Assembly: GCF_002571385.2 (NCBI RefSeq)
Contig: NW_019217843.1
Span: 587,336 to 626,294, forward strand
Length of the DNA stretch: 38,959 bases
DNA from: Stylophora pistillata
Taxonomy: Eukaryota
Direction of reading: 5' to 3'
The translations under genes were made by a program, and so were the position numbers. Below are positions 27,634-28,051 of the stretch, piece after piece (position 1 is the stretch's first letter; each line of letters begins with the position of its first letter). The notes beneath the pieces are model-generated. The model was not told where the DNA came from. It searched no databases and saw only the letters and a program-made list of their open reading frames with translations.

Positions 27634-28051
27634 TTCCGGGAATCTACCAGTTTGGTTGCATTCATATATCGACCAAGATCCAATGAAATGAAAGCTTCAT
27701 TTCTACGAAACCGAAAGAATGTTTCCGGGAAAAAGGGATTTTCCCTTGCATGCATAATTGGCTGAGAGCTTCCGCTATGCATCAAAACATGACTGCACCT
27801 TCTATTATGAGACCCCAACGTAAACACCTTTTTTATTGCAATCGAAGTTTGAAAAGCGAGCTAGATAAAGAAGAATATGGGAAAATGAAGATTTTAAAGC
27901 TTATTTCCGCGTCGTGAGTGACTTTATCGATTCCTATCACGCCACCCATTGTCTCATAGTTAATGGATTGTATAAAAGGATAACGTAGTTTACGTATTCT
28001 AAGAAAGCCTGAATAATTTCGGGGAAAATTTTCAAACATTTTTTCATAGAA
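27634..28051 (-). promoter_or_regulatory. Cluster of STAT (GAS), IRF-E and NF-kB-like sites upstream of ZNFX1
   Basis: TTCNNNGAA at 27634, 27701, 27723, 27997, 28018 and 28043; GAAACCGAAA at 27707-27716; GGGATTTTCC at 27735-27744. The cluster lies immediately 5' of a candidate non-coding exon (~27600-27481, donor aag|gtaatg) that could splice to the acceptor at 25869-25870. Confidence 0.6.

What the first reader, a model, noticed from the sequence alone, without database searches (positions are those of the whole stretch)
27634..28051. Interferon-stimulated-gene-like promoter: six GAS motifs, an IRF element and a kB site in about 420 bp
Seen: TTCCGGGAA (27634, 27723), TTCTACGAA (27701) overlapping GAAACCGAAA (27707), GGGATTTTCC (27735), TTCTAAGAA (27997), TTCGGGGAA (28018) and TTCATAGAA (28043). 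With an assumed ~38% GC, chance gives roughly 0.1-0.2 TTCN3GAA per 420 bp. Known: these are the consensus STAT, IRF and NF-kB sites, vertebrate ZNFX1 is interferon-stimulated, and cnidarians have these factors but no recognised interferon. Inference: an ancient STAT/IRF/NF-kB enhanceosome-like control module driving an antiviral gene.
Basis: partly seen in the sequence, partly recalled or inferred. Interest (0 to 1): 0.75.

Follow-up and report, generated by a model that had tools for sequence, protein, structure and literature searches.

The report
Conserved interferon-style switch on coral ZNFX1
A 75-base DNA element right in front of a coral gene for the likely antiviral helicase ZNFX1 keeps the same STAT-type and IRF-type motifs at nearly fixed spacing in distantly related corals, so it is likely an immune on-switch of the kind vertebrates use for interferon genes, in an animal group where no interferon is known.

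Summary
All eight motifs are present and the cluster is not chance: 6 of the window's 22 TTCN3GAA sites lie in 418 bp (14 of 200,000 random placements). RNA contigs show a non-coding first exon of ZNFX1 at 27481 to at least 27637, so the core is the proximal promoter. It recurs before ZNFX1 in 5 of 9 coral loci with enough upstream DNA, and before the window's second ZNFX1 copy (11299-11360), with GAS-to-GAS spacing 22 bp in 7 of 8 copies, although synonymous sites are only about 40% identical. The other four GAS sites are not conserved; three lie in the long 3' UTR of the upstream PLPBP-like gene. The kB site is labile, so 'STAT/IRF/NF-kB enhanceosome' overstates it. Binding and induction were not tested here. 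Nematostella ZNFX1 genes are strongly induced by poly(I:C) and cGAMP, but STAT or NF-kB knockdown did not change them. Motif enrichment in cnidarian antiviral promoters is published; this conserved composite was not found in ten searches.

The parts
27677..27751 (-). Conserved core element (proximal promoter of ZNFX1 copy 1)
   Evidence: Only non-coding blastn match between the PLPBP-like gene and ZNFX1 in L006, L008, L009; nhmmer E 2.5e-10 with a profile built from four other corals only; no RNA contig depth over 27708-27805 (from bin arithmetic)
27735..27745 (.). kB-like site (11-mer GGG...CCC), labile
   Evidence: a 12-mer variant in L004, L006, L008, L009, absent in 3 of 8 copies; L006 and L008 have a consensus kB site 74-79 bp further upstream
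27723..27731 (.). GAS 1 (STAT-type palindrome), conserved
   Evidence: Perfect TTCN3GAA in 7 of 8 copies
27707..27716 (+). ISRE / IRF element GAAACCGAAA, overlapping GAS 2 by three bases
   Evidence: TTTCNNTTTC intact in 6 of 8 copies, with the two middle bases varying (GG, AC, TG)
27701..27709 (.). GAS 2, starting 22 bp after GAS 1, conserved
   Evidence: Perfect in 6 of 8 copies, one mismatch in the other two; spacing 22 bp in 7 of 8, 20 bp in L008
27680..27684 (+).
   Evidence: ATTGG on the gene strand in 7 of 8 copies
27634..27642 (.). GAS at or just inside the 5' end of the transcript; not conserved
   Evidence: Overlaps the end of RNA contig X1 record 2; no GAS within 200 bp downstream of the core in 5 of 5 other modules checked
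27997..28051 (.). Three distal GAS sites (27997, 28018, 28043), lineage-specific, inside the long 3' UTR of the PLPBP-like gene
   Evidence: Covered by X2 contig 27838-29067 and X1 contig 27806-28053; no alignment above background to 5 loci; only a weak 21-bp tandem echo of the core (E 0.95)
27481..27637 (-). Non-coding first exon of ZNFX1 copy 1 (5' end at least 27637)
   Evidence: Spliced joint 25868-27481 with GT..AG ends in contigs of runs X1 and X2, two studies
25869..27480 (-). Intron 1 of ZNFX1 copy 1 (1612 bp)
13260..25868 (-). ZNFX1 copy 1, remaining exons (ATG at 25787; ZNFX1 domain, SF1 helicase, inserted LamG domain, zinc fingers)
   Evidence: Pfam PF25396, PF13086, PF13087, PF13385; tblastn of Montipora proteins; homologues named ZNFX1 in Desmophyllum and Montipora
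27806..32167 (-). Upstream PLPBP/YggS-like gene; distal poly(A) signal AATAAA at 27832-27837; 5' limit not mapped
   Evidence: Three exons match yeast PDB 1b54/1ct5 in order (E 5e-4, 5e-5, 0.33), with weak hits to PLP homeostasis proteins; Pfam gave no hit on the fragments; RNA contigs; poly(A) signals
11299..11360 (-). Second, partly degenerate copy of the core element, upstream of ZNFX1 copy 2
   Evidence: nhmmer E 1.6e-7 with the profile from four other corals; GAS 1, 22-bp spacing and CCAAT kept, ISRE and GAS 2 degenerate, kB absent
8900..10771 (-). Mutator-like transposase/exonuclease ORF lying between the second element and ZNFX1 copy 2
   Evidence: Pfam PF20700 E 1.4e-17, PF22123, PF25244

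Best explanation
The stretch 27677-27751 is the conserved proximal promoter of a stony-coral ZNFX1 gene, and it likely works as an immune-inducible switch in which the coral's STAT is predicted to bind two GAS palindromes 22 bp apart, an IRF is predicted to bind the ISRE overlapping the second GAS, and NF-Y is predicted to bind the CCAAT box next to the start site. Shown: position directly upstream of the spliced first exon, conservation of the motifs and their spacing while the spacer bases drift, and presence before paralogues. Inferred: after sensing of dsRNA or cGAMP, STAT would act first, possibly as a pair of dimers on one face of the helix (22 bp is about two turns). Newly made IRF would then take over or share the overlapping site and prolong expression, as at vertebrate GAS+ISRE composite genes, without interferon. 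NF-kB is at most an accessory input. The four other GAS sites are likely lineage-specific additions. My estimates: promoter identity about 0.9, STAT and IRF as the binders about 0.75, activation on antiviral stimulation about 0.65.
For: Cluster not chance. Spliced non-coding exon ends 40 bp or less from the core, and the core lies in the short gap between two transcripts. Found before ZNFX1 in 5 of 9 loci with at least 1.2 kb upstream of the first coding exon (L001 twice, L004, L006, L008, L009), with PLPBP synteny in L008 and L009. Local alignment scores 44-55 against shuffled maxima of 30-38, 0 of 500 shuffles reaching the score in each of 4 loci. Four-fold sites of exon 2 are only 38-43% identical between the window and these loci. 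Over 7 ungapped copies (L008 left out for its 2-bp deletion) motif positions are 90% identical and free positions 50%. L009 loses the CCGGAA (ETS-type) core but keeps the GAS. All 7 NFX1-type genes listed in the cGAMP polyp table of PMC8713801 are up, log2 3.3-10; two in PMC8476169 are up by log2 5.3 and 3.7 after poly(I:C). STAT, IRF and NF-kB motifs are enriched in poly(I:C)-induced Nematostella promoters (PMC8476169). STAT knockdown lowers SOCS2, so Nematostella STAT can activate genes.
Against: No binding, reporter or induction data exist here for this gene. In Nematostella, STAT knockdown (STAT itself down log2 1.87) changed only 7 other genes, and no NFX1-type gene appears in the STAT or NF-kB knockdown tables; IRF knockdowns of 40-60% had no measurable effect, and the antiviral genes examined were NF-kB-independent (PMC8713801). 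The element was not found in L005, L013 and L017 (1.3-1.7 kb upstream available) and only as a possible fragment at the contig edge in L018. L004, L006, L008 and L009 are related to one another (four-fold identity 0.68-0.81), so the 8 copies are about four independent lineages. I chose the 'motif' columns after seeing the alignment. The exact start site is not mapped: contigs cannot show it, and the raw-read runs X22 and X23 had no reads on the first exon. Motif labels rest on recalled vertebrate consensus sequences.
Confidence: 0.62

Rival explanations
1. IRF (with ETS or another factor) drives the gene and STAT is dispensable. The GAS-like words would be read by an ETS protein (CCGGAA core in GAS 1) or a BCL6-like zinc-finger protein, or STAT would be fully redundant with IRF.
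For: No ZNFX1 change on STAT knockdown. An ELF4-like gene is up log2 7.1 and IRF1 log2 9.0 after cGAMP; ELF1 and ELK1 mark poly(I:C)-activated cells (PMC13319465). GAS 1 reads CCCGGAAG in L004, L006 and L008.
Against: Both halves (TTC and GAA) with a three-base spacer are kept at two sites, GAS 2 has no GGAA, and L009 loses the CCGGAA core while keeping the palindrome. IRF knockdowns were also without effect. Vertebrate composite sites buffer the loss of single factors (PMC10287828).
Confidence: 0.17
2. STAT sits on the element in resting cells as a repressor, as C. elegans STA-1 does, and infection lifts it and lets IRF activate.
For: STA-1 represses antiviral genes through a STAT/ISRE-like motif without JAK or interferon (PMC5587905). 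The overlap of ISRE and GAS 2 suits mutual exclusion. It would explain why STAT knockdown does not lower induction.
Against: In the STAT knockdown table 8 genes including STAT and SOCS2 go down and none goes up, although only cGAMP-treated embryos were compared. STAT is itself cGAMP-induced there.
Confidence: 0.12
3. The element is a real STAT/IRF promoter but serves cell-type or stress expression (immune cells, heat, wounding) and is not an antiviral switch.
For: ZNFX1 also responds to environmental stress in salmon and oyster (PMC11959080). ZNFX1 depth relative to the PLPBP-like gene differs widely among the four untyped runs (weak, since contig depth is a poor measure and X22/X23 differ from the window at many letters).
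Against: Very strong induction of Nematostella ZNFX1 genes by viral mimics.
Confidence: 0.06
4. The cluster is chance, comes from a transposon or other repeat, or is a 3' end signal of the upstream gene.
For: Three GAS sites lie in the PLPBP-like 3' UTR, and intron 1 seems to hold a repeat remnant (X1 contig 26554-27079 with 25 other letters). No whole genome was available to count copies.
Against: Chance statistics. In 126,989 bp of coral DNA all 8 strong profile hits lie upstream of ZNFX1 exons. The copy at 11299-11360 has no PLPBP gene before it. No Rfam match. The flanks do not align.
Confidence: 0.03

Closest known systems
Vertebrate GAS+ISRE composite ISG promoters (APOL6, UBE2L6, TRIM69, PARP14; PMC10287828, abstract and passages seen)
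   Same: GAS and ISRE side by side in the proximal promoter of an antiviral gene; PARP14 has an adjacent or overlapping arrangement.
   Different: There, order and spacing vary from gene to gene (0-415 bp), and the binders are ISGF3, GAF and IRF1 downstream of interferon. Here one geometry (GAS, 6 bases, ISRE overlapping GAS, CCAAT) is held across coral lineages and paralogues, and no interferon is known.
STAT, IRF, NF-kB and ETS motif enrichment in poly(I:C)-induced Nematostella promoters (PMC8476169, passages seen; motif table S3 not seen)
   Same: Same factor families, same kind of gene; ZNFX1 is among the induced genes.
   Different: A statistical enrichment with vertebrate matrices over many genes; in the passages seen, no single element, spacing or cross-species footprint.
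Mammalian ZNFX1 promoter with predicted STAT1/2, IRF1 and IRF9 motifs (PMC11959080, passage seen)
   Same: Same gene family, same predicted inputs.
   Different: No sequence homology was tested; shared ancestry of the sites is not shown, and convergence or site turnover is likely.
C. elegans STA-1 regulon (PMC5587905, abstract and passages seen)
   Same: STAT-type motif at antiviral genes in an animal without interferon.
   Different: STA-1 mostly represses and binds an ISRE-like word; here there are palindromic GAS pairs plus a separate ISRE.
IFN-beta and MHC class I enhanceosomes (recalled, no call)
   Same: Compact, ordered sites near the start; the MHC class I promoter also joins kB, ISRE and CCAAT boxes.
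   Different: Neither is built on tandem GAS sites; here the spacer bases are free and the kB site is often lost.

Membership tests
Conserved proximal promoter element | Lies directly upstream of the transcript's 5' end, on non-coding DNA | tested here: met
   Spliced exon 27481 to at least 27637 in two studies; no contig depth over 27708-27805. Exact start not mapped.
Conserved proximal promoter element | Conserved above the neutral background at the orthologous position | tested here: met
   About 75% identity over 70-77 bp against 38-43% at four-fold sites; other 80-bp windows score at most 31 against 45-52.
Conserved proximal promoter element | Drives transcription in a reporter | not testable with these tools
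   Needs an experiment.
Vertebrate GAS+ISRE composite ISG promoter | GAS and ISRE within about 400 bp in the proximal promoter | tested here: met
   GAS 1 is 6 bases from the ISRE and GAS 2 overlaps it.
Vertebrate GAS+ISRE composite ISG promoter | Induced by type I and type II interferon | not testable with these tools
   The abstract of 10.64898/2026.05.30.728932 reports interferon homologues only in vertebrates and lancelets. I therefore file it as 'works like', not as a member.
Vertebrate GAS+ISRE composite ISG promoter | Bound by STAT and IRF complexes, with both sites needed or interchangeable | not testable with these tools
   No ChIP or binding data; Nematostella knockdowns negative for ZNFX1.
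IFN-beta-type enhanceosome (definition recalled) | Fixed order and spacing of sites | tested here: met
   GAS-GAS 22 bp in 7 of 8 copies; CCAAT at about the same distance in 6 of 8.
IFN-beta-type enhanceosome (definition recalled) | Near-invariant sequence with an obligatory NF-kB site | tested here: not met
   Free positions 50% identical; kB-like site absent in 3 of 8 and non-consensus in 4.
Transposon or dispersed repeat | Many dispersed copies unrelated to one gene family | tested here: inconclusive
   No genome. In 126,989 bp all 8 strong hits precede ZNFX1 exons, but these loci were collected by ZNFX1 similarity.
Structured non-coding RNA | Match to an Rfam family | tested here: not met
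   0 matches at gathering score in 25800-28900.

The most novel reading that the evidence does not exclude
The fixed GAS-ISRE/GAS-CCAAT geometry is the footprint of an ancestral STAT-IRF complex, a forerunner of ISGF3, and is the shared switch of a whole interferon-free antiviral regulon in corals and sea anemones. It would give a direct reporter for finding the missing cnidarian signal that activates STAT.
Probability: 0.2. Interest if true: 0.8.

Novelty: new variant of a known kind. Interest (0 to 1): 0.55.

Why it matters
Cnidarians switch on homologues of interferon-stimulated genes without a known interferon, and the published STAT and IRF knockdowns were inconclusive (PMC8713801). A 75-bp element that selection has kept motif by motif across divergent corals is independent evidence that STAT-type and IRF-type factors act on such a gene. 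It turns an open question (which factors, and which upstream signal) into a small reporter and gel-shift experiment. It could also serve as a search pattern for immune genes in coral genomes.

Tried and rejected
No whole genome was held, so genome background, copy number and a search for other genes with the element were not possible. An exact degenerate pattern of the core gave 0 matches in viral contigs and 0 in prokaryote genomes; these collections hold little coral DNA, so this says little. Raw RNA reads X22 and X23 (about 2 in 100 of each run read) gave depth 0-6 on ZNFX1 and none on the first exon, so no start site or strand could be read from them. The six-GAS unit was rejected because four sites do not align or recur. 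A repeat or RNA-structure origin was rejected as above. The tree finished only in quick mode: copy 1 groups with L003, L004, L006, L008, L009 and the downstream part of L001 (SH-aLRT 94) and copy 2 lies deeper on a long branch; it does not date the duplication or name the taxa. Pfam did not name the upstream gene from single exons. Supplements of PMC13319465 held as text had no ZNFX1 row, so induction in Stylophora was not seen. The zip of PMC8476169 was cut when stored, and its motif table was not found. PMC3296744, 10.1101/693333 and 10.1101/2025.11.22.689925 (passages) said nothing on this element or on cnidarian JAK. Five look-ups of earlier findings gave nothing on this locus.

Full report
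Setting. The window is stony-coral DNA. It holds two minus-strand ZNFX1 genes in tandem: copy 1 codes from 25787 down to about 13260 and copy 2 from about 7640 downward (Pfam ZNFX1 and helicase domains; tblastn). The closest named proteins are ZNFX1 of Montipora and Desmophyllum (90% and 84% over exon 2). Upstream of copy 1, also on the minus strand, is a PLPBP/YggS-like gene (three exons match the yeast protein of PDB 1b54/1ct5 in order). No genome was available.

Observation. Local shuffles give a mean of 0.31 and reach 6 in 1 of 20,000; random placement of 22 sites gives such a cluster in 14 of 200,000; 0 of 300 block-shuffled windows do so for any spacer of 0-8; other spacers in the real window never exceed 3.

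Where the transcripts lie. Contigs of two RNA runs from different studies (X1, guessed to be RNA; X2, on record as poly(A) RNA) join 25868 to 27481 across a GT..AG intron, which shows a non-coding first exon reaching at least 27637. From the bin depths a second X1 contig probably reaches about 27660 (my arithmetic). The PLPBP-like 3' UTR reaches 27838 in X2, a low-depth X1 contig covers 27806-28053, and an AATAAA lies at 27832-27837. The bin depths leave no coverage for 27708-27805 in either run. So the untranscribed gap is about 150 bp and the core fills it. The three distal GAS sites lie inside the long 3' UTR and the GAS at 27634 is at the 5' end of ZNFX1. Raw-read runs X22 and X23 gave depth 0-6 on ZNFX1, none on the first exon, and no start site. 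CpG observed/expected is 1.2-1.5 over the promoter and intron 1 and 0.06-0.43 over the PLPBP-like gene body, the pattern I recall for unmethylated inducible genes and methylated housekeeping genes in corals.

Conservation. A search of metagenome contigs gave 22 coral ZNFX1 loci. Nine have at least 1.2 kb upstream of the first coding exon. Between the PLPBP-like gene and ZNFX1, the only blastn match to the window is 27677-27751 (L006, L008, L009; about 75% over 70-77 bp), and L008 and L009 keep the upstream gene. Sliding 80-bp windows score 45-52 there in four loci and at most 31 elsewhere; 0 of 500 shuffles reach the score in each of the four. Four-fold degenerate sites of exon 2 are 38-43% identical between the window and these loci, so neutral DNA is close to saturation. 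A profile built only from L004, L006, L008 and L009 finds the window core (E 2.5e-10), a second copy at 11360-11299 before ZNFX1 copy 2 (E 1.6e-7) and L001 (E 1.3e-6, with a weaker second copy at E 0.34). The element is thus in 5 of 9 loci; L018 may hold its tail at the contig edge (E 4.5); L005, L013 and L017 lack it in the DNA available.

Anatomy over 8 copies, read along the gene: kB-like site, GAS 1, six free bases, ISRE whose last three bases begin GAS 2, about 15 bases, CCAAT box (inverted). GAS 1 is perfect in 7 of 8, the ISRE in 6 of 8, GAS 2 in 6 of 8 and the CCAAT box in 7 of 8. GAS 1 to GAS 2 is 22 bp in 7 of 8 and 20 bp in L008. The ISRE's two middle bases vary, as do the spacers (motif columns 90% identical, free columns 50%, L008 left out, columns chosen after the fact). 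The kB-like site is an 11-mer in the window, a non-consensus 12-mer in four loci and absent in three copies; L006 and L008 have a consensus site 74-79 bp upstream. The other four GAS sites have no counterpart. L004, L006, L008 and L009 are related (four-fold identity 0.68-0.81), so there are about four independent lineages. A quick tree groups copy 1 with those loci and puts copy 2 deeper, with modest support, which suggests the element is older than the split of these corals.

Mechanism. Shown: position and constraint. Inferred: binders and sign. The kept TTC-N3-GAA palindromes point to STAT, the TTTC-NN-TTTC repeat to IRF, and CCAAT to NF-Y (consensus sequences recalled). Two GAS sites about two helical turns apart would allow cooperative binding of two STAT dimers; the overlap at GAS 2 would allow either a hand-over from STAT to newly made IRF or a joint complex. 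In human cells GAS+ISRE composite promoters act as such switches and stay responsive when one factor is lost (PMC10287828, abstract and passages). In Nematostella all 7 NFX1-type genes listed are induced by 2'3'-cGAMP (log2 3.3-10; supplement rows of PMC8713801), and two rows seen are induced by poly(I:C) (log2 5.3 and 3.7; supplement of PMC8476169). Against a simple reading: STAT knockdown lowered only STAT, SOCS2 and six other genes and raised none; no NFX1-type gene is in the STAT or NF-kB knockdown tables; IRF knockdowns of 40-60% did nothing measurable, and the antiviral genes examined did not need NF-kB (passages). Redundancy between GAS and ISRE, or leftover protein, could explain this, as could an IRF/ETS-only mechanism or a repressor role like that of C. 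elegans STA-1 (PMC5587905, abstract and passages).

Comparison with what is known. Enrichment of STAT, IRF, NF-kB and ETS motifs in poly(I:C)-induced Nematostella promoters is published (PMC8476169, passages; its motif table was not seen and may bear on novelty). STAT and IRF motifs are predicted in the mammalian ZNFX1 promoter (PMC11959080, passage). Interferon homologues are reported only from vertebrates and lancelets (10.64898/2026.05.30.728932, abstract). Cnidarian NF-kB is of the p50/p52 type (PMC8677719, passages). PMC13319465 (passages) names STAT5A, IRF2, ELF1 and ELK1 in activated cells and has no whole-word hit for 'motif'. Ten searches (listings only, apart from the papers named) found no description of a conserved GAS/ISRE element in a coral or anemone promoter; one search returned 0 papers. 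The library lacks most subscription papers, and bioRxiv supplements were closed.

Verdict. The real unit is a 75-bp GAS-ISRE/GAS-CCAAT promoter element conserved before coral ZNFX1 genes. It works like a vertebrate composite ISG promoter but cannot be filed as one, since interferon dependence is undefined here. New variant of a known kind; interest 0.55; the bolder reading (ancestral STAT-IRF complex and shared regulon switch) has probability about 0.2.

Noticed in passing
window 20006-20776, minus: ZNFX1 copy 1 has a LamG/pentraxin-like domain inserted inside the helicase region; Montipora and Acropora ZNFX1 proteins carry it too.
   Followed up: partly
window 8500-11360: A Mutator-like transposase/exonuclease ORF lies between the second promoter element and the coding exons of ZNFX1 copy 2; a possible splice donor sits at about 11219, so the transposon may lie in intron 1. 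Not tested with reads. Copy 2 shows stops in tblastn segments that may be intronic or real.
   Followed up: partly
window 25809-25862, minus: A 17-codon upstream ORF in exon 2 of ZNFX1 copy 1, in frame with the main ORF and ending in a stop seven codons before the main ATG (read).
   Followed up: no
L001 1265, 1670, 3955-5001; L010 219-1259: L001 has two promoter elements and two copies of the first coding exon; L010 also has two copies of that exon. Local duplication or fusion of paralogues.
   Followed up: partly
L008 3240-3800: The element is only about 560 bp from the first coding exon; the stretch matching intron 1 of related loci seems deleted.
   Followed up: no
window 27806-28450, minus: The PLPBP-like gene has several poly(A) signals (28446, 28152, 28107, 27837); the longest form ends about 55 bp before the ZNFX1 promoter core.
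   Followed up: partly
window 12115-12291: Inverted repeat with 85-nt arms, 93% complementary, 7-nt loop; probably a small transposon remnant.
   Followed up: no
window 29122-29300 and 29940-30100: A high-copy repeat in PLPBP-like introns that draws very deep read and contig coverage.
   Followed up: no
window 543-1152: Two tandem copies of about 310 bp, 97% identical.
   Followed up: no
window 35693-36034, plus: ORF with a weak HDNR-domain match (PF15115, E 2.5e-5, below the curated cut-off).
   Followed up: no
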